Shown: positions 661 through 62,830 of the stretch, piece after piece | Layout of the letters: every line of letters begins with the position of its first letter | Numbering within the stretch: the stretch's first letter is position 1 | Origin: Heterodontus francisci | Lineage: Eukaryota | Direction: 5' to 3' | Assembly (NCBI RefSeq): GCF_036365525.1 | Contig: NC_090404.1 | Location: 5,642,001 to 5,706,000, forward strand | Length of the DNA: 64,000 bases | Notes under the pieces: generated by a model | Seen by the model: only the letters and a program-made list of their open reading frames with translations | Database searches by the model: none | What the model was told of the DNA's origin: nothing | Program-made: the position numbers and the translations under genes

Positions 661-918
661 ACCACAGGCGATTTACAGCTTTGGGGGAACGAGAGAGGAA
701 AATATGTTCCATAGAAACTAGAATTGTCTGTTCTGAATTTCTATCCTGTACTTACAATGATGACTTATAAAAACCTTTTACAGGGTATTAGAAGGGGAGG
801 ATTTGCAGACAGGAAACTCAAACCAAAGATCAGTGGTGAGAAACCGTTCACGTGTTCTCTGTGTGGCTGAGACTTCAACTGATCATCCAACCTGGAGACA
901 CACAAGGACGTCCACACC

Positions 919-1845
919 ACGGAGAAACCGTGGAAATGTGGGGACTGTGGGAAGGGATTCAGTTACCCGTCTGAGCTGGAAATTCATCGACGCACTCACA
1001 CAGGGGAGAGGCCATTCACCTGCTCCGTGTGTGGGAAGGGATTCATTGATTCATCTCACCTGCGGGCACACCAGCGAGTTCACACTGGGGAGAGACCATT
1101 CTCCTGCTACGTCTGTGGGCAGGGATTTAAACGATTGTCCAACCTTCTGACACACCAGCGAGTTCACACTGGGGAGAGGCCATTCACTTGCTCCGTGTGT
1201 GACAAGGGATTCATTGATTCATCCAACCTTCTGACACACCAGCGAGTTCACACTGGGGAGAGACCGTTCACCTGCTCCGTGTGTGAGAAGGGATTCATTG
1301 ACTCATCCAACCTGCGGTCACACCAGCGAGTTCACACTGGGGAGAGACCGTTTACCTGCTCTGTTTGTGGGCAGGGATTTAAGCGATCATCCAACCTTCT
1401 GACACACCAGCAAGTTCACACTGGGGAGAGACCGTTTACCTGCTCTGTCTGTGGGCAGGGATTTAAGCGATTGTCCAATCTTCTGACACACCAGCAAGTC
1501 CACACCGGGGAGAGGCCATTCACCTGCTCCGTGTGTGAGAAGGGATTCATGGATTCATCCCTCCTACTGAGACACCAGCGCATTCACACCGGGGAGAGGC
1601 CGTTCACCTGCTCCATTTGTGGGCAGGGATTTAATCAATCATCCAACCTTCTGACACACCAGCGAATTCACACAGGGGAGAGACCTTTCACCTGCTCCAT
1701 GTGTGGGAAGGGATTTAATCAGTCATCCAACCTTCTGACACACCAGCGAGTTCACAGCGGGGAGAGGCCGTTCACCTGCTCTGTGTGTGGAAAGGGATTC
1801 ACACGATCATCCCACCTGCTGAGACATCAGCGAGCTCACAAGTGA
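919..1845 (+). CDS. C2H2 zinc-finger protein ZNF-A1, 11 tandem fingers, start uncertain (ACG in Kozak context)
   Basis: Open frame 919-1845 = 308 aa = 11x28 with HTGERP linkers, ending HQRAHK*. Exon acceptor ttttacag|g at 783/784. In-frame TGAs at 868 and 880 upstream. First in-frame ATG is only in finger 8. Confidence 0.85.
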
Positions 1846-2254
1846 CTGCAGGCTTTGGAGTCTGCTGTTATTGTTGCTGTTAATCACATCCAGGATGGAA
1901 CCATGTTCATTCTGATATTTGGGGTTTGTTTCTGTTGATAATTAATTGATCAGCTGGGATCTAGTTGAATGGTGCAGCAAGTTCGATGGATGAAATAGTC
2001 TAATCCAGTTCCTCTGTACTTTCTCCCCAGACTTTCCCCAGCTCACTAACTCTGCTCTAGAGCTGGTTTCCTGTTTCACTGCCTCTTCCCCAGTTCTCCC
2101 ATGACTTTCCATTCATCAGCTGTGTTTGACTCCACATTTATTAGGGACAAGGAAACAGGAGTCAGCCATTTAACCCCTCGAGCCTGTTCTGCCATTCAGT
2201 GAGATCATAGCTGATCTGCAACCTAACTCGGTGTACCCAGATATTTTAATACCA

Positions 2255-3140
2255 TGGAGTTATACAGCACAGAAACAGGCCCTTCGGCCCATCGTGTCTG
2301 TGCTGGCCATCAAACACCTAACTATTCTAATCCCATTTTCCAGCACTTGGCCTGTAGCCTTGTATGCTATGGCGTTTCAAGTCCTCATCTAAATACCTCT
2401 TAAATGTTGTAAGGGTTCCTGCCTCTACGACCTCTTCAGGCAGTGCGTTCCAGATTCCAACCACCCTCTGGGTAAAAAAATGTTTCCTCAAATCCCCTCT
2501 AAACCTCCTGCCCCTTACCTTAAATCTATGCCCCCTGGTTATTGACCCCTCCGCTAAGGGAAAAAGTTTCTTCCTATCTAACCTATCAATGCTCCTCATA
2601 ATTTTATATACCTCAATCATGTCCCCCCTCAGCCTTCTCTGCTCTAAGGAAAACAACCCTAGCCTTTTCAGTCTCTCTTCATAGCTGAAATGCTCCAGCC
2701 CAGGCAACATCCTGGTGAATCTTCTCTGCACCCTCTCCAGTGCAATCACATCCTTTCTATAGTGTGGTGCCCAGAACTGTACACAACTCCATCATAACCT
2801 CCCTGCTCTTATATTCTATGCCTCGGCCAATAAAGGCAAGTGTCCCATATGCCCTCCTAACCACCTTATCTACCTGTGCTGCTTCCTTCAGTGATCTATG
2901 GACACCCAAGGTCCTCTGACCCTCTGTACTTCCTAGGATCCTACCATCCATTGTATATTCCCTTGCCTTGTTAGTCCTTCCAAAATGCATCACCTCACAC
3001 TTCTCAGGATTAAATTCCATTTGCCACTGCTCTACCCATTTTACCAGCCCATCTATATCGTCCTGTAATCTGAGGCTTTCCTCCTCACTTTGCAACACCA
3101 CCAATTTTCTGTCATCTGCGAACTTACTGATCATACCTCC
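2255..3140 (-). mobile_element. CR1 LINE, 5'-truncated
   Basis: RT C-terminal peptides (ISKFADD, LERVQRRFTRMLPG, FFTQRVV). Flanked by atacca. The empty site is visible in the paralog at ~29880. Confidence 0.9.
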
Positions 3141-3444
3141 TATACCAGCTTCCCCAGTCTGTTGAAATGTGATTTTAAAAATAACTGTCATCTACATTGC
3201 ATCTTTAAGGTAGGAAAGTGTCCCAAGGTGCATCTCAGAAGCTTAAACTGACAAATCAGACAAAAATTGAGACTGAGCTAAAGAAGAGGGCTGACTAAAC
3301 GTTTGGTCAAAGACGCAGGTTTTTAGGAAGGTCTTAAAGGAGGAGAGATGTGGACTGGCAGAGAGATATAGGGAGGGAATTCCAGAGCTCAGGGATGATG
3401 ACTGAAGGCACAGCCAATGAGACAGGGAGAGTGAGGGAGGTGTA

Positions 3445-3835
3445 AGACAACTGAGAGGTGATCTGATTGGAATGTGTAAGATTCTGAGGGGCTTGACAGG
3501 GTAGCTACTGAGAGGATGTTTCCCCTCGTGGGGGTTATCTAGAAATACAGGGCAGTGTCAAATTAAGGATCTCCCATTTAAAGAAGGTGATGAGGAATTT
3601 CATCTCTCAGAGGGTCATTAGTGTTTGGAATTCCCTTTCCCAACAAGCTGTGGAGGCTGGGTCATTGAATATATTCAAGGTTGTGTTAGACAGATTTTGG
3701 TTGACAAGCGTATGGGGAGGCGGGCAGGAAAGTGGAGTCAAGGCCATAGTCAAATCAGCCATGAACATGTTGAATGGCAGAGCAGGCACGAGGGGCCAAA
3801 TGGCCTACATTGGCTCCTATTTCTTAAGCTGTTAT
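3445..3835 (+). mobile_element. CR1 LINE 3' fragment
   Basis: RNFISQRVISVWNSL motif and CR1-type tail (ggcagagcaggcacgaggggccaaatggcctac). Confidence 0.75.
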
Positions 3836-4510
3836 GTGACTGAGGTGGAAATAGGCGGTATGAATGATGGCGCTGTTATGCAGTCGGAAGTTCATCTTGG
3901 AGTCAGAAATAACATCAAGGTTATGAGCGGTTTAGTTTAGCTTCAGACAATTGCCAGTGAAAGGGATGGAGACAGTGACTAGGCAGTGGAGTTTGTGGCA
4001 GGGACCGAAAACAATAGCTTCGCTCTTCCCTATGTTCAATTGGAGGAAACGGCTGTTCATCCAGTACTGGATGTCAGACAAGTCAGGACAGTGTGTGACT
4101 TGAAGGGGAACTTGGAGATGATAGTGTTCGCATACACCTGCTGCCTTTGTCCTTCTAGATGGTGGAAATTGAGGGTTTGGTAGGTTCTGTCAATACTCTG
4201 GTCATGTTGTAGATATATAAAATCCCTCTCCTTTGCTCCCTGCCCCTCCCACCTTTCTCTCCCCCTCTCCTCCCATGGTGGGCAGAGTCTTGTGTAGGTC
4301 CAGACTGGGTGGCAGGTTCCCTTCCCTGAAGGACATTAATGAACCAGTTGTTTTTTTTATGACAATCCAGCAGCTTCCATGGTCACTTTTTCCCAGGGCT
4401 GGCCCCATACATTACCCCACAGATTCATTCAGCTCACTTTCACAACCTGCCTTTGTGTTTCTGCGGGTTCTCTCACACTCCATTTTTCATGTTTTAAATC
4501 AATTTCACAG

Positions 4511-5310
4511 GGTATTAGAAGGGGAGGATTTGCAGTTGGGAAACCCAAAACAAACATCACATCATGATCTGATGGAGTCGCCCAATTTATTGTAACCTGA
4601 GTATAATCAGATTGTGAGCATGGAAGGAAAAAGCACCAATCACAAAGGAAACAAACTATACACGTGTTCTGTGTGTGAACGAGGTTTTAGCCGGTCATGT
4701 GGCTTGTTCCAACACAAGCACAGTCACACCGGGGAGGAACCATGTAAATATGGGGGCCGTGGAAAGGGATTCACCTATCCAGTTGAGCTGGAAAGCCATC
4801 CACGCAGTCACAACCCGGAGAGGCTCTTTACCTGCTCTGTGTGTGTAGGAAGGGAGTTACTGGGTCATCCAAACTCCGGAAGCACTGGAGAGTTCACACT
4901 GGGAAGAAACCTTTCAAATATCCCAACTGTGGGAATTGCTATAAACGTTCCGCTCAATTGAAGTCCCAGCACCGTGTTCACACTGACGAGAGACCGTTCA
5001 GATGTTCTCAATGCGGAACTGGATTCAAGTGACCTCACTGTACACCAGCGCATTCACACTGGAGAGAGGCCATTCACCTGCTCCGAGTGTGGGCAGGGAT
5101 TCACTTGGTCATCCCACCTGCTGAGACACCAGCGAATTCAACTGGGGAGAGGATGTACATCTGCTTCTTTTGTGGGAAGGGATTTGCTGTTCATCCACCC
5201 TGCTGGCACACCAGCGCATTCACACTGGGGAGAAACCGTTCATCTGCTTTGTGAGTGTGGGAAGAGATTTGCTCATTCATGCCACCTGCTGACCCATGAG
5301 CAATTTCACA
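4511..5310 (+). pseudogene. C2H2 ZNF pseudogene (ZNF-2), frameshifted fingers
   Basis: Same acceptor and linker (cag|G VLEGEDLQ...) as the other loci. Finger motifs spread across three frames with stops and lost Cys residues. Confidence 0.85.
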
Positions 5311-5454
5311 ATAATGAGAGTGATTGCATTCTGCTGTTAATCACATCCAGGCCTGAAGCATGTTATCACAGTCATGAGAAGTGCAGCAATGAAAATACAG
5401 AAACAAACTCGAGTTGTAAAAATTATAACAATTTCGAAAGACTGGTACATTTGC

Positions 5455-7237
5455 TGTTATGACCAAGGCGGGAGTAATGCACTGTTAATTCCGTCCCACT
5501 ACCCCACAGGTCACAGCATTATCAAGAACGTTTTCCACCTATCAAAGAACAGCCAAATTAGACACTATTTGTCCCACAGAATAAAGCACACCAAACCGGG
5601 TTTCTTTAAACAATAACAACATTAACTATGCATTTAAAATAAAGAATAAGTCTTAACTACAACAAGATAAATCTATATACATGAAAAGATTTTTAAAAAC
5701 TCCTTATTCTTCCTAGCCCTCAAGCACAAATTCAAAAAAAATGGTTAATCGGGGAAAAGGATTTTTAGTTTACAGCTGTTTCTTAGGAATAAAAAGGAAA
5801 ATATAAAATAATTGCGTTTATCACGTTATGGTAGGATGTTTTCAGTATGGTGAGGTGTCCCAGAGTTGAAAAGTCACATGCCACTCTATGTCTCTCCAGG
5901 CAACATTGATAAACAGTCTCTGATGGGTAAGCATTCAAAGCAATTTGTCTGCAGCAGGCATCACACAGGTCTTTCAGCAGGGGTGCAGCAACCAGTCTGC
6001 TCAGAACTCAGCAACAACACAGCAGTAAAAGCTTTCTGCAGGTTCCAGGGTTTCCCAAAATACAGGAGTGGCAGGGACCACACTGGATGCAGGAATTCTT
6101 CAGAGACAGGAGGCAATAGAAATCTGCCACCTTTCAAATGTAGGATTTTTTTTTTTACAGAGAAAGGACATTTCTCTGGTCTCCAGGCGGGTCACAGCCA
6201 GATTTCCAAAATGCCTGCTCCTTGTCCAAATCACTGGTCTTTTCACAATCCAAAAGTGAAACTAAACTTCAACAGTCAAGTCACATGACAATTGTAAGAT
6301 TATTAGGTTACTAAAAGTTACTAACCAGCATACTAATTGTTAAAATCCAGCTATTATAAACTAACTTGTTATCATCAACTAACATTTAGCTTTATTAGAA
6401 CTCTTCTTTGCAGTAAAGGCAGAGGGATTCTGGGAGATTGTGTCACGTTTTAAAATGCTTACTTGCAGCAAAAGTATGAGACCTTGAGAGAAGACAATGA
6501 AAGCATCTTCTGTGTAGATTTGCCTTGTAATGAGATAAGGAACCTGGAAATGTAAAAGCATTGAGATAAAGTAGTCAACACAAAGGGGTACTACTGGTTG
6601 AGCAAATCTGAAGGTTGCTAACCATCACAAAACGATCCTTGGTTGATTAAGAAAGGCAAACTTTAATACAAGACTAATCACGAATTGGGAGAGGGGAGGG
6701 TTAACTGGAAAGCTGTCAGGATAAAATAAGTCTTGTCCTTGCTACTGTACGGCAGAGAATTTTGAACAAGAGAGAGAGAGACTGAAAACTTGAAGACCAC
6801 AAGCTGCAAGAGAAAGTTGTGTGTTCTGCCATCCAGTCTCTAATATGGATAGTATCTGTGTTACACTGTTATTTACTGCCTGAGTTTGTGACTATGGTTT
6901 ATCTGAAAACTTAACAAACTTGTCCTTACATTTATCTCAATAAAGTCGATTCACAAGCTGTTGTGCTGCCATGTCTGTTCCCACCTTAGAAGGGGGTATA
7001 AAACACCCCCATCTTATCAAATCTTACATCTTGTGACTAATCTTACACAATCATAAATCTTGACCTGTCATTCCCTTGCTGAGTTGTTTGGAAGCAGCTG
7101 CCTTGCAAACTGTATTTCACTCAGTTCAAACCCACTAAGTTTCAGCAATCAATGTCTACAGAAAAATTATTTCTTCAGCTTTTAAAAGACCCCACAAAAT
7201 TCTTAGTTTTCAATACCAAAACAACACTCTTGTCACA
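5455..7237 (-). repeat. 3' LTR of the Gmr1-like element (split by a solo LTR)
   Basis: Begins tgttatgaccaaggcgggagtaatgcac, like 17773. Right end ...caacactcttgtcaca matches ...caacttttgtgaca at 19270. Confidence 0.7.
6293..7047 (+). mobile_element. Solo LTR (ERV- or Gypsy-type)
   Basis: TG...CA ends with a 10-bp inverted repeat (tgtaagatta/taatcttaca), 4-bp TSD caat (6289-6292, 7048-7051), AATAAA at ~6939. Confidence 0.8.
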
Positions 7238-8078: not shown

Positions 8079-8133
8079 TCCGACTGTATTGGCTGGGTTC
8101 AATTAAGCTGTTCTCCAGCATGTATTGGATTTC

Positions 8134-17602: not shown

Positions 17603-17772
17603 ATTCTCCTTTTCCAGAAACCCTGCTGGAACTGCTAATGCTATTCCGATAGTATAGCCTTTACCCTATACGAGAAACCTGGTTCTTTATTTTTCTTTCA
17701 CATTGTTACTCCCCTCACAATTAAAGTAATTAAGTGTTCGAAACGACCCCAACAAGAGACCCCCAATTCATA

Positions 17773-24772: not shown

Positions 24773-25189
24773 GGTGCAGGTGATCTTGTGTCTCTCCAGG
24801 TTGAACAATCAGTTGAAGCCTCAACCACACACAGAACAAATGTACAGTTTCTCCCTGCTGTGATGTTTTTTCAGGCTGTGGAACTGGTTAAAGCTTTTTC
24901 CACAGTCAGTGCACTGGAACACTCACTCGGGTGTGCGTGTTTCAGTGCTTTTCATTCTTTTCCCACAGACAGAATAGACAAACATTTCTCCTTCCACATT
25001 CAGAGGCTAATGATATTCAGGTTCCGATGAATCGAGTCAGATCTTGCAAGATGTTTGGTTTGTTTCTTGTCTGCAAATCCTCCTCTACTAATTCCTGTAA
25101 AAGATAATATAGAATACACAGTAAATGCCATGCAGTCCAACTGGTCTGTGCTAGTTCTTATACACCTCATGAAGGGACTGAGTTGTGAC

Positions 25190-26405: not shown

Positions 26406-26793
26406 GCTCCCATTCCATCAATCTCATTTCAGCCTTTCAGTAGACCGTTTTATTCCCTTTGTTCTCATGTTTTCATCTAGTTTCCTTTTGAAAGCATCTC
26501 AACTTATTTGCCTCAACCCCTTCCACATTCGACCCACTCTGTGAGTAAAGAAATCTCTCCTTATTTCCCTATTGGATTTATCAGTAACTGTATTCACGGC
26601 CACTGGATTTGGATTCACTCACAAGTGGAAACATTCTCTCCACATCTACTCTGTCCAACCCATTGATAATTTTAAAGAGCTCTATCATGTCACCGCTAAG
26701 TCTTCTGTTTTCGGAATATAAAAGCTCCAGCCTGTTCAATCTTTCCCAATCGCTGTAATCTCTCAGTTTATTGAATCCATCACTGTCCCTCAC

Positions 26794-27760
26794 CAAGACT
26801 TGTGCAGGATGGCGGCCAGTGACCCCGCTCCCCCGGGTCTGTCACCGCGTGGTAAACCCGGGGCCTGTGGCCTACCCCGGGTGTTTATGAAGCTTCCCAG
26901 CCCACTCACGGTTCCAATTCCTCCCCTGCGCCCACAATCTCCTCCCTCCTCCCACCTCCCGAGCCGCCTATTCCGCCTCACTCCGACTCTCACCCGCTGC
27001 AACAGCGTCTCCAACACTCCGAACAAAATGACACTGCGCATGCACACTGAACTCCTGTCGTGTGAATGGGGCAGATTCACCCGCGCGGAATGCTGGGTCC
27101 CAATAAACCAACACTAAAATTGAAATATACCGCATAATATTTTGCCCATGTGAAACGGAAAATAATTTACATCCCAGCCTGCAGAAGATAAATACTTTTT
27201 TTACAAAACAAACCATTTTGTGAAATGTTATTATGGGGAGTTGCGTCCATCTTTCTATGGGGCAGTGGTGCTTCATTTCGCCTGGCTAAATTGCGTTGGA
27301 GGAGTTTTGTCCCTAACAAAGATGGCGACAATGGGGCGGGGTTATCAAAACCCTTGGACGTCTGACGTTTTAGCTCCGACCGTAGGCAGGTGTGCGTGCG
27401 CAAATTACGAGTGGCGGATGTTGGGGGCGCGCGGAGGATGTTTGTTTCCGCATCGAGAAGTTTGAAGGGAGACAGTTAACGGTCGCTGGCGTCGCCATGG
27501 CTGCGGGGGCGGGGCTTGGTAACGGCGCGCGCCGGCACAGGTGGGCCATCGAGCTCGAGCTGTGCAGGAGCAGCAGGTGAGCGGCCAGGAGCAAGGCCGC
27601 GGAGAGAGCCTGGGGCTCGAGTGGGAGGCGGCAGCCGGCAGGCCTCTCTCCTGGGGAGAACACCACTCTGACTGGCGCCACCTGAAACACGGGGATTTTA
27701 ATGTCACAGCCTTTGAGGGGGAGGCAATGGGTGTGAGAAAACCTGGTTGATAATTACTGT
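26794..27760. promoter_or_regulatory. CpG-island bidirectional promoter between head-to-head ZNF-B1 (-) and ZNF-A2 (+)
   Basis: CpG-rich in a CpG-depleted background. NRF1-like TGCGCATGCA (27035), YY1-like AAGATGGCG (27319), GC boxes. Outward-facing splice donors at 26793 (-) and 27577 (+). Confidence 0.75.
27497..27576 (+). other. EMC4-like coding first exon (duplicate, copy 1)
   Basis: gccATGg, MAAGAGLGNGARRHRWAIELELCRSS(R), phase-2 donor CAG|GTGAGC. Resembles the EMC4 N-terminus as recalled (..RGRRFKWAIEL....GGSR). No further EMC4 exons recognised in the window. Confidence 0.6.
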
Positions 27761-28336: not shown

Positions 28337-28810
28337 GGGATTTACAGCTTTGGGGGAACGAGAGAGGAAAAAAATTTCCATAGAAACTAGAATTGTCTGT
28401 TCAGACTTTCTATCCTGTATTGACAGTGATAACTTTTGTAAACTCCTTTTCCAGGATGTTAAGGAAATAGTTTGCAGTTAAGAAAGTTAGACCAAACATC
28501 ATGTGAAGATTTGACAGAGTCACTCGATTCATCAGGATCTGAATATCATCGGCCTTGAATGTGGAAGGAGAAATGTTTGTCTTTTCTGTCTGTGGGAAGA
28601 GATTTCAGTGTGACCGGAAAAGCACCGAGATACACACACACCCGAGTGAGAGTGTTCCAGTGCACTGACTGTGGAAAGAGCTTTAACCAGTTACACAGCC
28701 TGAAAAAACATCACCCCATTCACAGCGGGGGGAAACTGTACACGTGTTCTGTGTGTGGATGAGGCTTCAACTGATCATCCAACCTGGAGAGGCACAAGGA
28801 CACCCACACC

Positions 28811-29485
28811 ACGGAGAAACCGTGGAAATGTGGGGACTGTGGGAAGGGATTCAGTTGCCCATCCCAGCTGGAGACTCATCGGCACAGTCACACAGGGGAG
28901 AGGCCGTTCACCTGCTCCGTGTGTGAGAAGGGATTCAGGAATTCATCCAACCTGTTGAGACACCAACGAGTTCACACTGGGGAGAGGCCATTCACCTGCT
29001 CCGAGTGTGGGAAGGAATTTATTCAGTCATCCAATCTGCTGATACACCAGCGAGTTCACAGTGGGGAGAGGCCGTTCACCTGCTCCATGTGTGGGAAGGG
29101 ATTCATTGATTCATCATACCTGCTGAGACACCAGCAAGTTCACACTGGGGAGAGGCTGTTCACTTGTTCCGTGTGTGGGAAGGGATTCATTCAGTCATCC
29201 CACCTGCTGATACACCAGCGAGTTCACACATGGCAGAGACCGTTTACCTGCTCTGAGTGTGGGAAGGGATTCATTCAGTCATCCCACCTGCTGAGACACC
29301 AGCGAGTTCACACTGGGGAGGGGCTGTTCACCTGCTCTGAGTGTGGGAAGGGATTTATTCAGTTATCCCACCTGCTGAGGCACCAGCGAGTTCACACAGG
29401 AGAGAGGCCGTTCACCTGTCCCGTATGTGGGAAGGGATTCATTCAGTCATCCCACCTGCTGAAACACCAGCGAGTTCACAAGTGA
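28811..29485 (+). CDS. C2H2 zinc-finger protein ZNF-A2, 8 fingers, start uncertain (ACG)
   Basis: 224 aa = 8x28, ending HQRVHK*. Acceptor ttttccag|g at 28454/28455. TGAs at 28760 and 28772. Intron end and 3' flank are paralogous to ZNF-A1. Confidence 0.85.
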
Positions 29486-30730: not shown

Positions 30731-30735
30731 AGTTT

Positions 30736-32034: not shown

Positions 32035-32249
32035 TAGGGATTCACTCAGTCATCCCACCTCACTGAACATCAACTTATTCACACTGATCAGAAACTGTTT
32101 ACATGTTCGGACTGTGAGAAGGGCTTTAAAAAAGGATCTGCCAAAACACCAACGCACCCACTCGGGACAGGCCGATCATTTGCTCTGTGTGTGGGAAGGA
32201 ATTCACTCAGTCATCCCACCTGCTGAAACACCAGCGAGTTCACAAGTGA
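32035..32249 (+). pseudogene. ZNF 3' fragment (about 3 broken fingers)
   Basis: [27 protein letters not shown]. The ZNF 3'UTR resumes at ~33415 after a CR1 insertion. Confidence 0.8.
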
Positions 32250-32263
32250 CAGCAGGGATTGGA

Positions 32264-44497: not shown

Positions 44498-45448
44498 TCA
44501 CAGCAGGTGAACGGCCTCCCTCCCAGCGTGAACTCGCTGATGTCTCAGCAGATTGCCTTTACTTTTAAATCTCTTCTCACAGTCGGAACATTTAAAAGGT
44601 CTTTTATCTGTGTGAACAACTTGGTGTATTTGAAGGTGAGATGACTGAGTGAATCCCTTCCCACACACAGAGCAGGTGAATGGCTTCTCCCCAGTGTGAA
44701 CTCGCTGGTGTTTTAGCAGGGTGGATGGATTAGTGAATCCTTTCCCACAGTCAGTGCAGGTGAACTGCCTCTCCCTAGTGTGAATTTGCTGGTGTCTCAA
44801 TACATGGAATGACCGAGTGAATTCCTTCCCACACTCAGAGCAAGTGAACATCCTCCCCCCAGTGTGAGTACGTTGGTGTTGCTGCAGGTAGCTTTTACTT
44901 TTAAACCTCTTCTCACAGTCAGAACACTTAAAAGGTCTCTTGTCTGTGTGAACAAGTTGGTGTGTCAGGAGGTGGGACAACTGACTGAATCCCTTCCCAC
45001 ACAAGGAACAGGTAAACGGCTTCTCCCCAGTGTGAACTCGCTGGTGTGTTAGAACGCGGGTTGACCGAGAGAATCCCTTCCCACACACGGAGCAGGTGAA
45101 TGGCTTCTCCCCAGTGTGAGTACGTTGGTGTTGCAGCAGGTCATTTTTACTTTTAAATCTCTTCTCACAGTCAGAACATTTAAAAGCTCTCTTATCTGTG
45201 TGAACAAGTTGGTGTGTCAGCAGGGAGGATGGATTAGGGAATCTCTTCCCACACACACAGCATGTGAACGGTTTCTCTCCAGTGTGAACTCGACGGTGTT
45301 TCAGCAAGTGCGATGAATTCATGAATCCCTTCCCACACACGGAGCAGGTGAACGGCCTCTCCCCAGTGTGACTGCGTCGATGAGTTTCCAGCTGGGATGG
45401 GTAATTGAATCCCTTCCCACAGTCCCCACATTTCCACGGTTTCTCCGT
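44498..45448 (-). CDS. C2H2 zinc-finger protein ZNF-B2, 11 fingers, start uncertain (ACG)
   Basis: Open frame with 11 fingers. accACGg at 45448. Acceptor at 45815/45814. A twelfth finger is out of frame (44437-44520). AATAAA on the minus strand at ~42990. Confidence 0.87.
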
Positions 45449-45890
45449 GGTACGGGTGTCCTTGTGTCTCTCCAGGCTTGACAATCAGTTGAACCTCAGC
45501 CACACACAGAACACGTGTACAGTTTCTCCCCACTGTGAATGGGGTGATAGTTTTTCAGCCTGTGTAACTGGTGAAAGCTCTTTCCACAGTCAGTGCACTG
45601 GAACACCCTCACTCGGGTGTGTGAGAGACTTGGTGCCGTTCCAGTCACACTGATGTTTCAAATCTTTTTCCGCAGACAAAACAGACAAACCTTTCTCCTT
45701 CCACATTCAAAGGATTTTCAAAGGATATTCAGGTCCTGACGATCTGACTCAGTCAGATCTTGATGTGATGTTTGATTTGAGTTTCCCATCTGCAAATCCT
45801 CCCCTTCTAATCCTCTGTAAAAGGAGATTATATAGAATGACATAGACTACACAGTGCACAAACAGGCCATTCAGTCCAACTAGTCTCTGC

Positions 45891-54000: not shown

Positions 54001-57000
54001 ACTGATTTGCTGGTGCACTCTTACTCTTACACACTCTATCGCTTCCTGTCACACTCTGGTTATCACTGTCAGTATTACTACCCTGCAATATTGTCTTCTC
54101 CTTTTTCAGTAACTTTCTAAATTTCCCCTCACCTGAACACTGACCACCACTATTTAGTTTAAAGGCCTAATATTACGATTAGCCAGGACACTGGTCCCAG
54201 TGCGGTTCAGGTGAAGGCTGTCCCAATGGTATAGCCCCCTCTTTCCTCAGTACTGGTGCCAATGCCCCATGAAGTGAAACCCATTTCTCCTACACCAATC
54301 TTTGAGCCACACATGCAACTCTCCGATCTTATTTACTCTCAGCCAATTTGCTTGTAGCACAGGGAGTGATCCAGAGATTATTACCTTTGTGGTTCTTTTT
54401 AAATTTAGCCCCTGGATACGCATACTCCCTCAGCAGAACCTCTTTCTTAGTCCTACCTATGTTGTTGGTACCCACATGGACCACGACAACTGGATCCTTC
54501 CCCTCCCACTTCCACTAAGTTCCTCTCCAGCCTCGAGGAGCTGTCCTTAATCCTTGCACAGGGCAAGCAACACAGCATTCAGGATTCATGCTTCTGGCTG
54601 CAGAGAATCTTATCTTTCCCCTTAGACTGTTACATATATATTCTTTTTCATTCATTCATGGGGTGTAGGCATCACTGGCCAGGCCAGCATTTATTGCCGA
54701 TCCCTAATTGCCCTTGAGAAGGTGGTGGTGAGCTGCCTTCTTGATCTGCTGCAGTCCATGTGGGGTAGGTACACCCACAGTGCTGTTAGGAAGGGAGCTC
54801 CAGGATTTTGACCCAGTGACAGTGAAGGAACGGCGATATAGTTCCAAGTCAGGATGGTGTGTGACTTGGAGGGGAACTTGCAGGTGGTGGTGTTTCCATT
54901 CATTTGTTGCCCTTGTCCTTCTACTTGGTAGAGGTCGTGGGTTTGGAAGATGTTGTCTAAGGAGCCTTGGTGCGTTGCTGCAGTGTATCTTGTAGATGGT
55001 ACACACTGCTGCCACTGTACATTGGTGGTGGAGAGAGTGAATGTTTGTGGATGGGGTGCCAATCAAGTGGGCTGCTTTGTCCTGGATGGTGTTGAGCTTC
55101 TTGAGTGTTGTTGAAGCTGCACCCACCCAGGCAAATGGAGAGTATTCCATCACACTCCTGACTTGTGCCTTGTAGATGGTGGGCAGGTTTTGGAGTCAGG
55201 AGGGGAGATACTCGCCGCAGGATTCCTAGCCTCTGACCTGCTCTTGTAGCCATGGTATTTATATAGCTACTCCAGTTCAGTTTCTGGTCAATGGTCGCCC
55301 CTAGGATGTTGACAGTGGGGGATTCAGCGATGATAATGCCATTGAATGTCAGGGGAGATGGTCAGATTCTCTCTTGTTGGAGATGGCACTTGTGTGGCGT
55401 GAATGTTACTTGCCACTTATCGGCCCAAGCCTGGATATTGTCCAAGTCTTGCTGCAGTTCTACACGGACTGCTTCAGTATTGGAGGAGTCATGAATGGTG
55501 CTGAACATTGTGCAATCATCAGCGAACATCCCCACTTCTGACCTTATGATTGAAGGAAGGTCATTGATGAAGCAGCTGAAGATGGTTGGGCCTAGGACAC
55601 TACCCCTAGGAACTCCTGCAGTGATGTCCTGGAGCTCAGATGATTGACCTCCAACAAACACAACCATCTTCCTTTGCGCTCGGTATGACTCCAACCAGCA
55701 GAGGGTTTTCCCCGATTGCCACTGACCTCAGTTTTGCTCGGGCTCCTTGATGCCTAACTCGGTCAAATGCTACCTTGATGTCAAGGGCTGTCACTCTCAC
55801 CTCACCTCGAGTTCAGCTCTTTTGTCCATGTAGAAACCAAGGCTGCAATGAGGTCAGGAGCTGAGTGGCCCTGGCAGAACCCAAACTGAGCATCACCGAG
55901 CAGGTTATTGCTAAGCAAGTGCCGCTTGATGACACTGTTGATGACACCTTCCATCACTTTACTGATGATTGAGAGTAGGCTGATGGGGCGGTAATTGGCC
56001 GGGTTGGACTTGTCCTGCTTTGTGTGTACAGGACATACCTGGGCAAGTTTCCACATTGCAGGGTAGATGCCAGCTTTGTAGCCGTACTGAAACAGTTTGG
56101 CTAGGGGCACGGCAAGTTCTGGAGCACAGGTCTTCAGTACTATTGCCAGAATATTGTCAGGGCCCATAGCCTTTGCAATATCTAGTGCCTTCAGACGTTT
56201 CTTGATATCACGCAGAGTGAATCGAATTGGCTGAAGTCTGGCATCTGTGATGATGGGGACTTCAGGAGGAGGCCGAGATGGATCATCAACTCGGCACTTC
56301 TGGCTGAAGATTGTTGCAAATGCTTCAGCCTTATCTTTTGCACTGATGTGCTGGGCTCCCCCATCTTTGAGAATGGGGATATTTGTGGAGCCACCTCCTC
56401 CAGTTAGTTGTTTAATTGTCCACCACCATTCATGGCTGGATGTGGCTGGACTGCAGAGCTTAGATCTGATCTGTTGGTTATGGGATAGCTTAGCTCTGTC
56501 TATCGCATGCTGCTTACGCAGTTTGGCATGCAGATAGTCCTGTGTTGACACCTCATTTTGAGGTATGCCTGGTGCTGCTCCTGGCATGCCCTCCTGCACT
56601 CTTCATTGAACCAGGGTTGGTCTCCTGGCTTGATGGTAATGGTAGTGGGGGGGATATGCCGGGCCATGAGGTTACAGATTGTGGTTGAGTATAATTCTGC
56701 TGCTGCTGCCCCGACTTGAATGGCCCCCCTGCACACGGTGTCATGGTCAGTTTGCTCATCCACTCTGCAGTCCCTGCTCTTGTCCAAACAATCTACAAGA
56801 ACCTTGAACCTGTTGGACAGGCGCAAGGGCCGAGGCTCTTCTGCTTCTGTGTCCCCACATTTGCCTCACTCACAGTCACACCCTCCTGTCCCTGACCATG
56901 GACCAAATCTGAAGTACCTAGCCTAACGGGTGTGACTGCCTCCTGGAACAAAGCGTCCAGGTGATTTTCCCCTTCCCTATTACATCGCAATGTCCGAATC

Positions 57001-58370
57001 TCAGACTCTAGCTCATCAACTCTGAGCTGAAGTTCCTCGAGCTGCAGACGCTTACTGCAGATGTGGTTGCTGTGGATCACACTGGTGTTCACCCAGCCCC
57101 CACAGGCTGCAGCTGCAACACATCTCCTGCCCTGCCATCTTTATTGTGTTTTATTTAACTAATTAGGTTTCAAGTTTAGAAATATCACTGATAATTTGTC
57201 GTTCTATTAAGTAGTTTAACTAGTTAGCATACAAATTTAATACTTTTATCTCGCCAGTACCAGCTTAAACTACTGACCCAGTGTGGAAAAGAAAAAAACC
57301 TTAAAACACAACCACTCACACATCTGCTCCCTAATTGATGCCTCTGGGCTGTAGCTCTCACTGTCTCCAGCTCCCTCTCTTGGATCACTGCTTGTTATGT
57401 AAAAGTTCAGAACAGCACCCCCTCCCTCACTGCACCAAATTCCCATATTTAGCAAATTCCCGAGTTTAGCTCTCTGTCTCACAATTACACAGCACTTTGT
57501 GCATTAGCAAGACCTCCTGCATTTATACTAACTAGAATTCCACAGACCTGAGTCAGGTCCTGCTGACTGGGGAACCAGTTCTAACTAGCTAACTAAGTAA
57601 CTAACTGTGCAGCTGACACTTGCAGGTAGTTTGTTTACCATTCACTAAGACTGAAAGGAACTATGATTAAATATTAAAGTCAAGTTAAATGCGAAATGGA
57701 AACCTGACTCGATTTTAGAAAGAGGTCAACCTCTGAAATTTCCACTTACCAAATTCCCAAATTAAGCACTGTGTCACGCAGCACTCTGTTTCTGTTTACA
57801 TTAATCCAGAGGCCGTGAGTTCAAATCCTGCCTCGGCAGTTTGAGAATTGAAAGTCAAAATCTGGAAATAAAAAATCTGGTTGTCAGTAGATGTGACCAT
57901 GAAGCTACTGGATTGCCTAAGAATGTTCATTTATACAGCATCTTTCCCCAACCTCAGGATGTTCCAAAGCACTTTACAGCCAATTAAGCATCTTTAAAAT
58001 GTGTACTCACTCTTGTAATGTCGGATAATGCGGGCAGCCCAAGCTGTGTACAGCAAGATCCCACAAACAGCAAACACCAACCAACCACCCACCTTTTCAC
58101 AACAGGCATAAAATTGGTTCATTCCCTCAAGGGATGGAAACCTGCCGTCCTTACCCGGTCTGGGCCTGTATAAGTGACTGAAGTCTTACACTAACATGGA
58201 TGACTATTAACTGCCCCTGAAGTGGCCGAACGAACCACTCAGTCGTATGAAACCGGTTCAAGGAGGCGGCCGCCCACCACCAGCACCTTCTCAAGGGGAG
58301 ACTAGGGACAGGGTAATAAATACCAGCTTTACCAGCGATGCCCACATCCCAAGAATGAATTAGTAAAAAC
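48030..58370. mobile_element. About 10 kb of stacked CR1, CR1/L2-group LINE and SINE fragments
   Basis: Continuous RT and tail motifs on both strands. An old minus-strand CR1 (ORF1 N-terminus HICSKR..LQLRVDELE at ~57090) is interrupted by younger elements. Confidence 0.8.
54645..56712 (-). mobile_element. Second LINE family (CR1/L2 group), 3' about 2 kb
   Basis: KAMGPDNI, NYRPISLLS, QFGF, GVPRGSVLGPTIFSCFINDL, MFADD. 3' tail shared with SINE family 2. Confidence 0.85.
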
Positions 58371-58451
58371 TTGCAGCCAGTCCTTTCCTCAAAGGGACTG
58401 GTGGAAAATCTGAAGCCCACCCACTGGAGACACCAAAACCCATCCAAGCTC

Positions 58452-58965
58452 AGTAATTATCAACCAGGTTTTCTCGCACCCATTGCCTCCGCCTCAAAGG
58501 CTGTGACATTAAAATCCCCGTGTTTTAGTGTTTTGGGTGGCCCCAACCAGTGTGGTGTCCTCCCCAGGAGAGAGGCCTGCCGGCTACCGGCTACCACTCG
58601 AGCCCCAGGCTCTCTCCGCGGCCTTGCTCCTGGCCGCTCACCTGCTCCTGCACAGCTCGAGCTCGATGGCCCACCTGTGCCGGCGCGCGCCATCACCAAG
58701 CCCCGCCCCCGCAGCCATGGCAACGCCGGCGACCGTTAACCATCTCCCGTTCAAACTTCTCGACGCGCGAAAAAATGCGCCAACAATCGCTGCCTCGCAG
58801 ATCGCGCACGCGCACCAACTGCGTTCGGAGCCGCAATGTCAAACGTCATCATCGCCTTCTTTGTTCGGAGCAAAACTCTGCCAACGCCATTAAGCCAGGC
58901 GAAATGAAGCGCCACTGCCCCGTAGAAAGATGGACACCACGCTCAATGCGAACATTTCACTTCGA
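58452..58965 (-). promoter_or_regulatory. Inverted copy of the type-A half of the CpG-island promoter
   Basis: Reverse complement aligns with 27221-27758. Confidence 0.85.
58642..58718 (-). other. EMC4-like coding first exon (duplicate, copy 2)
   Basis: gccATGg, MAAGAGLGDGARRHRWAIELELCRS(R), CAG|GTGAGC. Differs from copy 1 by N>D and a 3-nt deletion. Confidence 0.6.
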
Positions 58966-59542
58966 GTCATAGAGTTATACAGCACAGAAACAGGTCCTCG
59001 GCCCATCGTGTCAGTGCCGGCCATCAAGGACCTATCTTTTCTAATCCCATTTTCCAGCACTTGGCCCGATGCCTTGTCTGCTGCGGCATTTCAAGTGCTC
59101 ATCTAAATACTTCTTAAATGTTGGGAAGGGTACCAACCCTTCAGGCAGCGTATTCCAGATTGCAACCAATCACAGGGTGAAAACATTTTTCCTCAAATCC
59201 CCTCTCAACCTCCTGCCCCTTATCTTATATCTATGCCCCCTGGTTATTGACATCTCTGCGAAGGGATAAAGTTTCTTCCTACCTACCCTATCTCTCTCTG
59301 CCCTTCATAATTTTGTATACTTCTATAAGGTCTCCCCTCAGCCTTCTCTGCTCTAAGGAAAACAACCCTCGCCTATCCAGTCTCTCTTCATAGCTGAAAT
59401 GCTCCAGGCCAGGCAACATCCTGGTGAATCTCCGCTGCACCCTCTCCAGTGCAATCACATTCTTCCGATGGTGTGGCGACCAGAACTGTACACAGTACTC
59501 AAGCTGTGGCCTAACTAGCGTTTCATACAGCTCCATCATAAC
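58966..59542 (-). mobile_element. CR1 3' fragment
   Basis: LVRPQLEYCVQFWSP..LERVQRRFTRMLPG. Confidence 0.88.
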
Positions 59543-59544
59543 TT

Positions 59545-60163
59545 GTGGTTGCTGGCCATTTCAACACTCCCCCCTGCTCTCATGCCCACATCTCTGTCCT
59601 GGGATTGCTGCAGTGTTCCAGTGAACATCAACGCAAGCTCGAGGAACAGCACCTTGTTTACTGATTAGGCACGCTACAGCCTGCCGGACTGAACATTGAG
59701 TTCAATAATTTCAGAGCATGACGGGCCCCCCTTTTTATTTTTAGTTATTTTTTTCTTTTTTGTGTTTGTTTAGTTTGTTTCTACTGTGCCGACCCACTTT
59801 TTCATGTTTGTGCTTGGGGCCAAACTGTTCAGTTTTCTGTCAATTAACACCCTCTGTATTAACAGTTTGTCTTTCACCACACCAGTAACATACCGTTTGC
59901 CTTTGCTCCATGACCTTCTGGTCAGTTATTCTCTGTGACCTTGTCCTATCAACACCTTCTCTTTTGTTATTTCTTGCCCCACCCCCACTTTACTTGCTTA
60001 AAACCTATTACATTTTTAGCCTCTGCCAGTTCTGATGAAGGGTCACTGACCTGAAACATTAACTCTGCTTCTCTCTGCACAGATGCTGCCAGAACTGCGA
60101 AGTATTTCCATTATTTCTTGTTTTTATTTCAGATTTCCAGCATCTGCAGTATTTTGCTTTTAT
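59545..60163 (+). mobile_element. Penelope-like 3' fragment
   Basis: Reverse-complement homology to 34017-34680. Confidence 0.8.
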
Positions 60164-60209
60164 CACAACTTGCTTGTTTTGTGAAAAAAGTATTTATCTT
60201 TTGCAAGCT

Positions 60210-61497
60210 TGATTAGAGATAGTCAGCATGGCTTTGTGAGGGGCAGGTCATGCCTCACAAGCCTTATTGAATTCTTTGAGGATGTGACAAAACACATTGA
60301 TGAAGGAAGAGCAGTGGATGTTGTGTATATGGATTTTAGCAAGGCGTTTGATAAGGTTCCCCATGGTAGGCTCATTCAGAAAGTAAGGAGGCATGGGATA
60401 CAGGGAAAATTGGCTGTCTGGATACAGAATTGGCTGGCCCAGAGAAGACAGAGGGTGGTAGTAGATGGAAAGTATTCAGCCTGGAGCTCGGTGACCAGTG
60501 GTGTTCCGCAGGGATCTGTTCTGGGACCTCTGCTCTTTGTGATTTTTATAAATGACTTGGATGAGGAAGTGGAAGGCTGGGTTAGTAAGTTTGCCGATGA
60601 CACAAAGGTTGCTGGAGTTGTGGATCGTGTGGAGGGCTGTTGTAGGTTGCAACGGGACATTGACAGGATGCAGAGCTGGGCTGAGAAGTGGCAGATGGAG
60701 TTCAACCTGGAAAAGTGTGAAGTGATTCATTTTGGAAGGTCGAATTTGAATGCAGAATACAGGCTTAAAGACAGGATTCTTGGCAGTGTGGAGGAACAGA
60801 GGGATCTTGGGGTCCACGTCCATAGATCCCTCAAAGTTGCCACCCAAGTTGATAGGGTTGTTAAGAAGGCGTATGGGGTGTTGGCTTTCATTAACAGGGG
60901 GATTGAGTTTAAGAGCCGCGAGGTTATGCTGCAGCTCTATAAAGCCCTGGTTAGACCACACTTGGAATATTGTGTTCAGTTCTGGTCGCCTCATTATAGG
61001 AAGGACGTGGAAGCTTTAGAGAGGGTGCAGAGGAGATTTACCAGGATGCTGCCTGGACTGGTGGGCATGTCTTATGAAGAAAGGTTGAGGGAGCTAGGAC
61101 TTTTCTCATTGGAGCGAAGATGGATGAGAGGTGACTTGATAGAGGTGTACAAGATGATGAGAGGCATAGATAGAGTGGATAGCCAGAGACTTTTTCCCAG
61201 GGCGGAAAGGGCTATCACCAGGGGGCATAATTTTAAGGTGATTGGAGGAAGGTTTAGGGGAGATGTCAGTGGTAGGTTCTTTACACAGAGAGTGGTGGGT
61301 GCGTGGAATGCACTGCCAGCGGTGGTAGTAGAAGCAGATACATTAGGGACATTTAAACAACCCTTGGATAGGTACATGGATGATAGTAGAATGAAGGGTA
61401 TGTAGGTAGTTTGATCTTAGAGTAGGTTAAAGGGTCGGCACAACATCGTGGGCCGAAGGGCCTGTACTGTGCTGTACTGTTCTATGTTCTATGTTCT
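60210..61497 (+). mobile_element. Young 5'-truncated CR1, open RT frame (398 aa)
   Basis: No stops to 61405. (ttctatg)n tail. TSD aagct (60205-60209, 61498-61502). Confidence 0.95.
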
Positions 61498-61502
61498 AAG
61501 CT

Positions 61503-61853
61503 GAGATGGACCATATTTGTCGTTTTTCTCCAGCAAAATATTATGCAGGTATATTTTAATTCTAATGTTGGTTCATTTGTACCCATTTATCTCCCATTAC
61601 AAAGATGGCCGATATCGCTGAACCTGCCATTAAGACTTTCAATGGTGGGGCTATTACCCACCATTCCACGCGGAAGTGAATCTGCCCTATTCACACTACA
61701 TGAGCTCAGTGCGCAGGCGTAATGCTGGGCTGTATCCGGGGCATGCGCAGTATCATTTTGATCAGACTGCTGGAGACGCTTTTGGGGCGGGAGAGTCGGA
61801 CTAAGGCAGGCCTGGGCAGCGGGGTCACTGGCCGCCATCCTGTACAAGTCTTG
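61503..61853 (+). promoter_or_regulatory. Type-B half of the duplicated promoter and putative non-coding first exon
   Basis: Reverse-complement homology to 26794-27180. GCATGCGCA at 61741. Donor TTG|GTGAGG at 61854. Intron 61854-62334. Confidence 0.7.
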
Positions 61854-62334
61854 GTGAGGGACAGTGATGGATTCAGTAAACTGAGAGATTACAGCGATTG
61901 GGAAAGATTGAACGGTGGAGCTTTTTTATTCCCAAAACAGAAGACTTAGCGGTGACATGATAGAGCTCTCTAAAATTATCAATGGGTTGGACAGAGTTGA
62001 ATTGGAGAGAATGTTTCCCCTTGTAAGTGAATCCAAATCCAGGGGCCATGAATACAGTTACTGATAAATCCAATAGAGAAATAAGGAGAGATTTCTTTAC
62101 TCAGAGAGTGGGTAGAATGTGGAAGTGGTTGAGGCAAATAGTTGAGATTCTTTCAAAAGGAAACAGATGAAAATAAGAGAACAAAGGGAATAAAAAGCTC
62201 TGCTGAAAGGCTGAAATGAGCTAGATGGAATGGGAGCAGACAAGCACCAGGTTTATAAGCACAGTCTAGTTGCACTGAATAGCCTGTCTATGTACTGTGT
62301 ATTCTATGTCATTCTATATAATTTCCTTTCACAG

Positions 62335-62830
62335 GGGTTTAGAAGGGGAGGATTTGCAGATGGGAAACTCAAACAAAACATCTCATCAAGATCTGACAGT
62401 CACTCTATCATCAGCCTTTGAATGTGGAAGGAAAAATGTTTGTCTCTTCTGTCTGTGGGAAAAGATTTCAAACATCAGTGTGACTGGAAAAGCACCGAGA
62501 CACACACACCCGAGTGAGAGCACTGACTGTGGAAAGAGCTTTCACCAGTTACACAGCCTGAAACACATCACACCATTCACAGCACGGAGCAACTGTACAT
62601 GTGTTCTGTCTGGATGAGGCTTCAACTGATTGTCTAACCTGGAGAGACACAAGGACACCTGGACCACGGAGAAACCGTGGAAATGTGGAGACTGGGAAGG
62701 GATTCGATTACCCATCCCAGCTGGAAACTCATCAACACAGTCACACCGGGGAGAGGCTGTTCACCTGCTCCGAGTGTGGGAAGGGTTTTGCTAATTCAAA
62801 CAACTGAGACACCAGCGAGTTCACAAGAGA
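62335..62830 (+). pseudogene. ZNF-B3 pseudogene, array collapsed to first and last finger
   Basis: Acceptor at 62334/62335. TGAs at 62615 and 62627. ACG at 62666 followed by a frameshift in finger 1 (2-nt loss) and a broken last finger. Confidence 0.85.

What the first reader, a model, noticed from the sequence alone, without database searches (positions are those of the whole stretch)
868..62668. Five paralogs share a double TGA, and the intact arrays start at accACGg or accATGg
Seen: the finger before each array reads C-G-*-G/D-F-N-* in five loci. TGAs are at 868/880, 28760/28772 and 62615/62627 (+), and 24823/24811 and 45498/45487 (-). The divergent ZNF-2 keeps CGA/CGG (4680, 4692). Downstream arrays of 8-11 fingers are intact in four loci. 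The codon before EKPWKC is accATGg in ZNF-B1 (24772) but accACGg at 919, 28811, 45448 and 62666, with A at -3 and G at +4. In ZNF-A1 the first in-frame ATG is in finger 8. Knowledge: ACG is a usable near-cognate start, and CpG deamination gives both CGA>TGA and ACG>ATG. Inference: the family turned its N-terminal coding region into 5'UTR. It may initiate at a non-AUG codon or gain a start by CpG decay, so methylation-driven mutation could act as an on/off switch for array-only proteins.
Basis: partly seen in the sequence, partly recalled or inferred. Interest (0 to 1): 0.72.

Follow-up and report, generated by a model that had tools for sequence, protein, structure and literature searches.

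The report
Shark zinc-finger family likely starts CUG
In a shark zinc-finger gene family of several hundred copies, every intact copy that lacks the normal ATG keeps a nearby in-frame CTG start-like site while copies with ATG freely lose it, so about half of these genes are likely translated from a CUG codon and not from the ACG first proposed.

Summary
The coordinates are right, but the reading changes. The window holds 5 members of a shark C2H2 family (325 exact matches genome-wide; ATG 170, ACG 97, ACA 30 at the codon before EKPWKC). Only the second TGA is a family trait (178 of 227); the first is neutral CpG decay (CG 93, TG 63, CA 48). ACG arrays are as intact as ATG arrays (61/113 vs 87/156), so there is no on/off switch. 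But arrays with ACA, GCG, AGG or AAA there can also be intact, so ACG is not required. What is required is an in-frame CTG 27 nt upstream (aacCTGg; window 892, 28784, 45475, 24799, 62639): a usable leader (NTG, G at +4, open frame) is kept in 86 of 86 intact non-ATG copies but in only 66 of 87 intact ATG copies (p=2e-7); in loci fetched after the idea was formed, 30/30 vs 26/35 (p=0.003). Best reading: CUG initiation, made dispensable when an ATG is present; ACG or a hairpin over it may help. No ribosome or protein evidence exists. The scan noted the ACG pattern in other shark genomes before; a look-up for CUG found nothing.

The parts
784..891 (+). A1: start of the finger exon (acceptor-like tttacag|GGTATT at 784) and shortened dead-finger leader with TGA 868 and TGA 880
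   Evidence: splicing inferred from sequence, not seen
892..894 (+). A1: in-frame CTG in aacCTGg, proposed start
   Evidence: family constraint
892..1845 (+). A1: 317-codon open frame, 9-codon leader + ACG (919) + 11 C2H2 fingers; first ATG at 1549
911..942 (+). A1: predicted hairpin over the ACG (CCACGG/CCGTGG core), base about 16 nt after the CTG; same fold predicted in C, B1, B2
   Evidence: z -0.9, -2.3, -2.4, -0.9; covariation only suggestive
4620..5318 (+). ZNF-2: decayed member of the sister subfamily with an ATG at 4620 (MEGKS), CGA/CGG instead of stops, ggcTTGt instead of aacCTGg, GGG at the T/M codon
24095..24799 (-). B1: open frame from CTG 24799 through ATG 24772, 8 fingers, frameshift before the last finger
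24800..25094 (-). B1: dead-finger leader with TGA 24823 and 24811, from the acceptor-like site near 25094
26994..27045 (-). B1: candidate short first exon with donor-like GCAGCGG|GTGAG and NRF1-like GCATGCGCA (motif name recalled); this exon/intron-start region is found upstream of 65 of 287 paralogs in the fetched flanks
27394..27580 (+). C: candidate first exon of a second type (donor-like site near 27576); holds an ATG whose frame would close early in the next exon
   Evidence: inferred, junction not seen
28456..28783 (+). C: dead-finger leader, TGA 28760 and 28772
   Evidence: covered by RNA-like contigs of the family
28784..29485 (+). C: open frame from CTG 28784 (aacCTGg) through ACG 28811, 8 fingers; first ATG at codon 102
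44498..45475 (-). B2: open frame from CTG 45475 (agcCTGg) through ACG 45448, 11 fingers, frameshift before the last finger
45476..45810 (-). B2: dead-finger leader, TGA 45498 (out of frame) and 45487
62330..62860 (+). D: pseudogene; TGA 62615/62627, CTG 62639, ACG 62666, frameshift inside finger 1

Best explanation
These shark zinc-finger genes have a leader of three dead fingers closed by a fixed TGA, and the copies without ATG likely start translation at an in-frame CUG 12 nt after that stop and 27 nt before the ACG/ATG codon. The CUG is the old helix leucine of the last dead finger; it happens to have A at -3 and G at +4 (shown). A scanning ribosome that passes or re-initiates after two weak-context upstream ATGs would start there and make [18 protein letters not shown] plus the array (inferred). 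The ACG is then codon 10 (Thr), at most a second-chance start, and sits in a predicted hairpin that could slow scanning over the CUG (weakly supported). Where codon 10 is ATG, by CpG decay of ACG or by descent, the CUG and its nine codons are released from constraint (shown). ATG gain would therefore change dose and N-terminus, not switch the gene on (inferred). The products are predicted array-only DNA-binding proteins.
For: Leader usable (NTG at -27, G at +4 unless ATG, open frame to codon 0): intact non-ATG 86/86, intact ATG 66/87 (p=2.4e-7), broken non-ATG 84/99 (p=5e-5), broken ATG 52/69, n=341 de-duplicated copies. Discovery set and first held-out set. Loci fetched after the idea was noted: 30/30 vs 26/35, p=0.0027. 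Holds under four definitions of intact. Point changes alone (T, G of CTG and +4 G): 68/68 vs 56/72, p=1.3e-5. Of 61 three-base windows from -66 to -6, the five most invariant in intact non-ATG copies lie at -28 to -24. Two other leader CTG motifs (-195, -111) are not conserved in the same copies: 11/53 and 7/50 changed vs 1/56. Divergence of the groups is equal. The only changes seen at the codon in intact non-ATG discovery copies are to ATG (2) and TTG (1) of 56. Non-ATG copies with an unusable leader: 0 of 15 intact; ATG copies: 21 of 38 intact vs 66 of 118. Frame from -27 to 0 closed in 0/68 intact non-ATG copies, from -33 in 1, from -36 in 2, from -39 in 62, which places the entry point at or just before the CTG. 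16 of 68 intact non-ATG frames hold no Met and 22 more have it after half of the fingers. Known: G at +4 raises CUG about 10-fold, and CUG can reach about 50% of a consensus AUG (PMC5778536, passages); hairpins 14-18 nt downstream aid non-AUG starts (PMC5666671, passages).
Against: No ribosome, peptide or reporter data. The composite test was designed after seeing the discovery set; each held-out set alone is not significant against intact ATG copies (12/12 vs 14/20, p=0.06; 18/18 vs 12/15, p=0.08), only the two pooled. Synonymous CTA/CTC/CTT changes alone are too few (0/68 vs 7/215). ACG copies are more often intact than ACA copies (61/113 vs 14/43, p=0.02), which a CUG-only model does not predict. 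About 3.2-3.6 ATG triplets lie in the 330 nt upstream in all groups, so output from a CUG may be low. Exon junctions were not seen; the RNA status of the runs laid is a guess. One genome only; paralogs share ancestry, although the tree is star-like and the 18 disabling changes listed are of many different kinds.
Confidence: 0.8

Rival explanations
1. ACG in accACGg is itself the main start; the upstream CTG region only assists it.
For: ACG copies are more often intact than ACA copies (61/113 vs 14/43, p=0.02); CA at nine other leader CpGs goes with 191/377 intact vs 9/31 here (p=0.02). ACG in this context can reach about 40% of AUG (PMC5778536, passages).
Against: 21 of 68 intact non-ATG copies lack ACG (12 ACA, 4 GTG, 2 GCG, TTG, ACC, AGG), and their arrays are as clean (Cys/His loss 2/449 in the 13 non-start copies); intact AGG and AAA copies also; 47 of 47 intact ACG copies still keep the CUG leader, where about a quarter should have lost it; two intact ACG copies have C at -3 or A at +4. 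As an auxiliary start beside the CUG it remains open (about 0.4).
Confidence: 0.07
2. An upstream ATG exon splices into an acceptor between the second TGA and the array, so no odd start is needed.
For: Database gene models do join such arrays to other exons (P0041, P0143, P0151), though these are predictions. Junctions were not directly observed.
Against: None of the three AG dinucleotides at -23, -21, -14 is invariant in intact non-ATG copies (4, 16, 9 of 68 changed); no polypyrimidine tract; among the 15 best-supported joints shown (164 not shown) none has GT..AG ends; it would not explain why the constraint disappears in ATG copies.
Confidence: 0.05
3. The TGG at -26..-24 is another kind of cis element (RNA structure, protein site, re-initiation signal after the TGA, or guide for C-to-U editing of ACG) that non-ATG copies need.
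For: A small UCCA/UGGA stem around the CUG appears in some folds; the stop lies only 12 nt upstream.
Against: Frame and stop constraint over the nine codons, tolerated swaps to ATG/TTG only, and intact ACA/AGG/AAA copies that editing could not turn into AUG; C is still read at 28812 in about 60% of contig depth in run X1 (paralogs mixed).
Confidence: 0.05
4. Non-ATG copies are young or neutral pseudogenes that have not yet decayed.
For: About half of all copies are broken in every class; a 43-copy pseudogene subfamily holds both ACG and ATG.
Against: Intact ACG arrays have lost 9 of 1490 Cys/His codons while their own dead fingers have lost 15-18%; nearest paralogs are only about 88% identical; 72 ACG vs 5 GTG excludes many independent recent ATG losses.
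Confidence: 0.03

Closest known systems
Vertebrate genes initiated solely or mainly at non-AUG codons (EIF4G2/DAP5 GUG, TEAD1 AUU; conserved paralog clusters TEAD, C1QL1-4, YPEL; PMC5666671 and PMC3105428, passages)
   Same: Near-cognate codon in strong context, delimited upstream by an in-frame stop, inferred from conservation; CUG is the commonest such codon.
   Different: Those are single genes or clusters of 3-4 paralogs, mostly N-terminal extensions conserved across species. Here at least 86 intact paralogs in one genome depend on the site, and 87 sister copies with ATG serve as an internal control in which it decays.
PTEN-beta type start with a downstream hairpin (AUU, hairpin 18 nt downstream; PMC5666671, passage)
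   Same: Predicted hairpin begins about 16 nt after the CUG.
   Different: Here the hairpin is only predicted; the C-G/U-A covariation is weak (p=0.02 in intact, 0.85 in broken copies) and intact copies with mismatched stems exist.
Lineage-specific tandem poly-C2H2 families (tetrapod KRAB-ZNF, cyprinid FiNZ-ZNF; PMC10547256, search listing plus a word look-up that found no mention of sharks)
   Same: Clustered, fast-duplicating arrays with HTGERP linkers, many pseudogenes.
   Different: No effector domain in the predicted product; the former N-terminal region is untranslated. KRAB families are reported as enriched among losses in cartilaginous fishes (PMC8455134, passage).
Shark 'MEGKS' sister subfamily (ZNF-2 of this window, L069; P0061 Scyliorhinus torazame, P0092 Cetorhinus maximus)
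   Same: Same exon start, same finger types, same EKPWKC finger.
   Different: Starts at an upstream ATG, keeps the preceding finger open, has Gly or Glu at the T/M codon and lacks the A-3/G+4 context at the homologous Leu codon.

Membership tests
Tandem C2H2 (Kruppel-type) zinc-finger genes | Repeated Cx2Cx12Hx3H units with TGE(K/R)P linkers | tested here: met
   homolog hits carry PF00096 and related domains
KRAB-ZNF / FiNZ-ZNF | N-terminal effector domain in the same protein | tested here: not met
   The open frame begins 12 codons or fewer before finger 1 behind an in-frame stop in 62 of 68 intact non-ATG and 67 of 72 intact ATG copies; no domain scan of first exons was run
Non-AUG-initiated genes | Near-cognate codon in frame, in strong context (-3 purine, +4 G) | tested here: met
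   aacCTGg in 4 of 5 window copies, agcCTGg in B2
Non-AUG-initiated genes | Codon and downstream frame under purifying selection | tested here: met
   86/86 vs 66/87; controls
Non-AUG-initiated genes | No in-frame AUG that could serve instead | tested here: met
   In-frame stop at -39 in 62/68; no Met in 16 and a late Met in 22 of 68 frames; others have a Met within the first half
Non-AUG-initiated genes | Ribosomes initiate there / N-terminal peptide seen | not testable with these tools
   No ribosome-profiling or proteomic data on hand
Non-AUG-initiated genes | Transcript includes the codon without an intervening splice | tested here: inconclusive
   RNA-like contigs of four organisms cover the leader and array, depth falls about 50-fold upstream of the exon, but no piece spans the stretch and RNA status is a guess
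Hairpin-assisted near-cognate start | Stable stem 14-18 nt downstream, kept by selection | tested here: inconclusive
   Predicted in 4 of 4; covariation p=0.023 intact, 0.85 broken; fold energy only slightly lower than the same register one finger on (-13.1 vs -11.9)
Programmed stop-codon readthrough / selenoprotein | Frame and residues conserved upstream of the stop | tested here: not met
   47 frameshifts at -120..-40 in 56 intact non-ATG copies; dead-finger Cys/His loss 15-30%

The most novel reading that the evidence does not exclude
A whole vertebrate transcription-factor family expanded to hundreds of copies on a CUG start recycled from a dead finger's leucine codon, and is being converted copy by copy to AUG by CpG decay nine codons downstream, a conversion that has nearly run to completion in other sharks: a natural experiment on how a canonical start codon is born.
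Probability: 0.45. Interest if true: 0.85.

Novelty: new variant of a known kind. Interest (0 to 1): 0.72.

Why it matters
Genes that rely on a non-AUG start are known one by one. If right, this is a single family with at least 86 such intact genes in one genome and a matched set of 87 ATG sisters, so the sequence needs of a CUG start (+4 G, tolerated codons, downstream structure) can be read from natural selection and tested with native leaders. It also means that about half of this shark family is likely missed or mis-joined by annotation (database models add invented N-termini or chain loci together), which affects zinc-finger counts in cartilaginous fishes. The direction of change (CUG-led state first, or ATG lost in one founder and rescued) is open and testable with other shark genomes.

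Tried and rejected
Double TGA as a conserved signal: first site behaves as a neutral CpG. Readthrough or selenocysteine: leader frame is broken. Two founder lineages (ATG and ACG): no support, 82 changes vs 85.7 +/- 3.6 shuffled on a FastTree tree of 227 rows with the codon and CpGs masked, best linked column p=0.001 of 1094 tests; the tree is star-like, so this is weak and gives no direction. Conserved uORF: the two leader ATGs (-257, -243) are kept at similar rates in all groups. Hairpin covariation: strong in the discovery set (7/38 vs 29/52), p=0.05 after the first held-out set, p=0.023 at the end: left as suggestive. RNA: no holder on record as RNA was listed; contigs cannot show editing, level, start or strand, and at 90% likeness paralogs are mixed, so locus-specific editing and first-exon junctions remain unseen. 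Protein searches mostly returned unrelated or joined finger models and could not give the codon state across named sharks beyond a few cases (Carcharodon model P0125: R, I, M, M; Scyliorhinus P0122: V). No first-exon motif for A1 was found in the 10 kb before the window (L366). A 24-nt pattern for damaged CTG sites was too strict (1 match). Literature searches that found no description of this: (open-licence library only). No structure or complex prediction was run, as it would not bear on the start site.
Full report
Setting. The window is G000:C34:5642001-5706000 of a 6.0 Gb genome. It carries five members of one C2H2 family, one member of a sister type (ZNF-2) and a fragment near 32 kb. The closest named relatives are shark proteins, chiefly labelled Heterodontus francisci.

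Observation. All coordinates check out, with the qualifications given under the observation check: in B2 the first TGA is out of frame; B1 and B2 lose their last finger by a frameshift; D is a pseudogene.

Family census. The exact pattern ACC-NNN-GAGAAACCRTGGAAATGTG matches 325 places: ATG 170, ACG 97, ACA 30, GTG 5, ATA 4, ATT 3, GCA 3, GCG 3, AGG 3, TTG 2, GGG 2, ACC, ACT, AAA 1 each (lower bounds). I fetched 288 of them: all 155 non-ATG and 133 of 170 ATG (left out: 15 of 17 tandem copies at C34 7.70-7.74 Mb and 22 on other contigs). Collapsing copies at 94% identity left 227. 'Intact' means that the frame from the codon reaches the end of the finger-like DNA and has at least 4 canonical fingers.

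The stops. At the first TGA site the dinucleotide is CG 93, TG 63, CA 48, symmetric decay as at other leader CpGs; the second TGA is at -39 in 178 of 227. The leader holds three dead fingers whose Cys/His codons are lost in 15-30% of cases, with many frameshifts.

The ACG. ATG>ACG and ATG>GTG are mirror-image changes in the palindrome CATG, yet de-duplicated counts are 72 vs 5, and ACA outnumbers ATA 28 to 3. ACG was therefore the founding state of many copies in this genome. The codon is scattered over a star-like tree (82 changes vs 85.7 +/- 3.6 shuffled). TG outnumbers CA 107 to 31 here against 415 to 377 at nine other leader CpGs (per-site ratios 0.55-2.5; two sites whose majority is not CG were left out), which fits either selection for AUG gain or ATG founders in the mix; I cannot separate these. 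In contigs of four runs laid at 90% likeness, T replaces the C of ACG in 40%, 66%, 96% and 93% of depth (organisms A, B, D, F), so in two other organisms the family is almost all ATG. That leaves the direction of change across sharks open.

Selection on the arrays. Intact: ATG 87/156, ACG 61/113 (p=0.80), ACA 14/43 (p=0.02 vs ACG). Cys/His loss in intact arrays: ACG 9/1490, ATG 6/2299, non-start codons 2/449. ACG copies are thus as functional as ATG copies, which removes the on/off switch. But clean arrays behind ACA, GCG, ACC and AGG did not fit an ACG start, and led me to look upstream.

The CTG. Between the second TGA (-39) and codon 0 the in-frame codons are TCA, TCC, AAC, CTG (-27), with A at -3 and G at +4 of the CTG. 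In the discovery set the 56 intact non-ATG copies read CTG 53, ATG 2, TTG 1, with no stop or frameshift down to codon 0, whereas the 52 intact ATG copies include CTA, CAG, ATA, two TAG stops, a frameshift and a deletion. I noted the idea and then analysed further loci found by patterns that vary other positions (76 loci, 30 of 48 matches taken, 60 after de-duplication, one sister-type row dropped; 68 loci, 30 of 67 matches taken, 58 after de-duplication). Result for 'leader usable': held-out 12/12 vs 14/20 (p=0.06) and 18/18 vs 12/15 (p=0.08), pooled 30/30 vs 26/35 (p=0.0027); all 341 copies (three sister-type rows of the discovery set dropped) 86/86 intact non-ATG, 66/87 intact ATG, 84/99 broken non-ATG, 52/69 broken ATG. 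Put the other way, a non-ATG copy with a disabled leader is intact in 0 of 15 cases against 86 of 170, while for ATG copies it makes no difference (21/38 vs 66/118). A direct search for damaged CTG sites (18 matches, 10 not duplicates of earlier rows) gave 4 new non-ATG copies, all broken, and 6 with ATG at or next to the site, of which 2 are intact.

Controls. Four definitions of intact give the same picture, with 0 exceptions each. The groups are equally diverged at -120..-40 and -23..-4. The five best of 61 sliding windows all overlap the CTG-G (best p=0.0003, about 0.02 after correction). Two other CTG motifs in the leader are not conserved. The residues of the nine-codon leader vary freely; only frame, stops and the first four bases are held. 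The frame is never closed from -30 on, once from -33, twice from -36. No AG is invariant. The search patterns fixed -3..+21 only, so they could not select for the CTG. Against: synonymous third-position changes alone are too few (0/68 vs 7/215), and finger 1 also keeps a Leu-Glu with G after the Leu codon in 136 of 137, showing that this motif pre-existed as coding sequence; in the leader, however, the finger around it is dead.

Mechanism. Shown: the constraint pattern, its dependence on the absence of ATG, its position. From the literature: CUG is the strongest near-cognate codon and gains about 10-fold from +4 G (PMC5778536, passages); non-AUG starts use Met-tRNAi as a rule and are helped by hairpins 14-18 nt downstream (PMC5666671, passages). 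Inferred: initiation at the CUG. A hairpin over codon 0 is predicted in all four window copies folded, beginning about 16 nt after the CUG; ACG pairs with CCG and ATG with CCA, and this covariation is seen in intact (p=0.023) but not broken copies (p=0.85). It could explain why ACA, which breaks the stem, is less often intact than ACG; a second-chance start at ACG explains that equally well. Upstream ATGs (about 3 per 330 nt) apply to ATG and non-ATG copies alike and suggest low output. That tandem C2H2 translation stalls ribosomes in zebrafish (PMC11620358, abstract only) offers a speculative reason why weak initiation might be tolerated; I did not test it.

Origin. The sister subfamily (ZNF-2, L069, P0061, P0092) starts at an ATG (MEGKS) that reads GTG (VEGE) in this family, keeps the preceding finger open and lacks the context at the Leu codon. 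The simplest history is loss of the old start and of the first fingers, with a leucine codon of the last dead finger taking over. Whether ATG at codon 10 came before or after is undecided.

Prior knowledge. Six literature searches (open-licence papers only, supplements not read) found no account of this family's start. PMC10547256 does not mention sharks in its main text; PMC8455134 notes KRAB among families lost in cartilaginous fishes (passages); PMC3105428 lists conserved non-AUG cases in small paralog clusters and has no zinc-finger term (passages). This scan noted the ACG pattern in other shark genomes (e1-9963969, e1-9148120); a look-up with CUG found nothing.

Verdict. Real feature, better explained than first proposed: likely family-wide CUG initiation with ATG as an optional replacement. 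New variant of a known kind; interest 0.72; confidence in the CUG start 0.8, pending a reporter or ribosome-profiling test.

Noticed in passing
G000:C34 about 30-44 Mb, C1097 and small contigs (L148-L175, L217-L280, L304-L318): A recently amplified pseudogene subfamily (43 fetched copies at 94% identity or more, 24 ACG and 19 ATG, plus 15 gccATG copies) whose frame stops at codon 24; probably carried on a large repeat or segmental duplication.
   Followed up: partly
G000:C34:7700373-7743904: 17 head-to-tail ATG copies at about 2.75 kb spacing; the two fetched (L236, L237) are broken after 2-3 fingers.
   Followed up: partly
L055, L281-L287 (C28, C35, C334, C379, C1395, C1806, C1960): A near-identical intact ATG copy with 9-11 fingers dispersed over several chromosomes and large unplaced scaffolds; about 20 more exact matches on such scaffolds were not fetched. 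It may travel with a mobile or repeated unit.
   Followed up: no
window 26780-27640: B1 and C are head to head with two different first-exon-like segments about 580 nt apart; the C-type segment lies in the opposite orientation upstream of L234, L238 and L091, suggesting a shared bidirectional promoter cassette.
   Followed up: partly
family leader, about -201 relative to codon 0 (e.g. window 28610-28612): A further in-frame TGA in the first dead finger closes a 15-codon frame from the leader ATG at -243; both fixed stops fall on DNA-contact positions of the finger helix.
   Followed up: partly
L006, L011, L024, L090, L243, L322, L406: Independent-looking CTG>ATG changes at -27 give a canonical start with the nine-codon leader (MERHKDT...); a database model with this N-terminus exists (P0249).
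   Followed up: partly
window 32038-32250 (+): Decayed two-finger C-terminal fragment of the family without the leader.
   Followed up: no
window 1-640: GC-rich stretch that looks like the 5' part of a retroelement ending just before A1's acceptor; no first-exon motif for A1 in the 10 kb before the window, so A1's promoter is not located.
   Followed up: partly
listing: Variants at -2 of codon 0 are far commoner (67 matches, many with ATG) than variants at -1 (10) or -3 to pyrimidine (4 of 48); not explained, partly duplicates.
   Followed up: no
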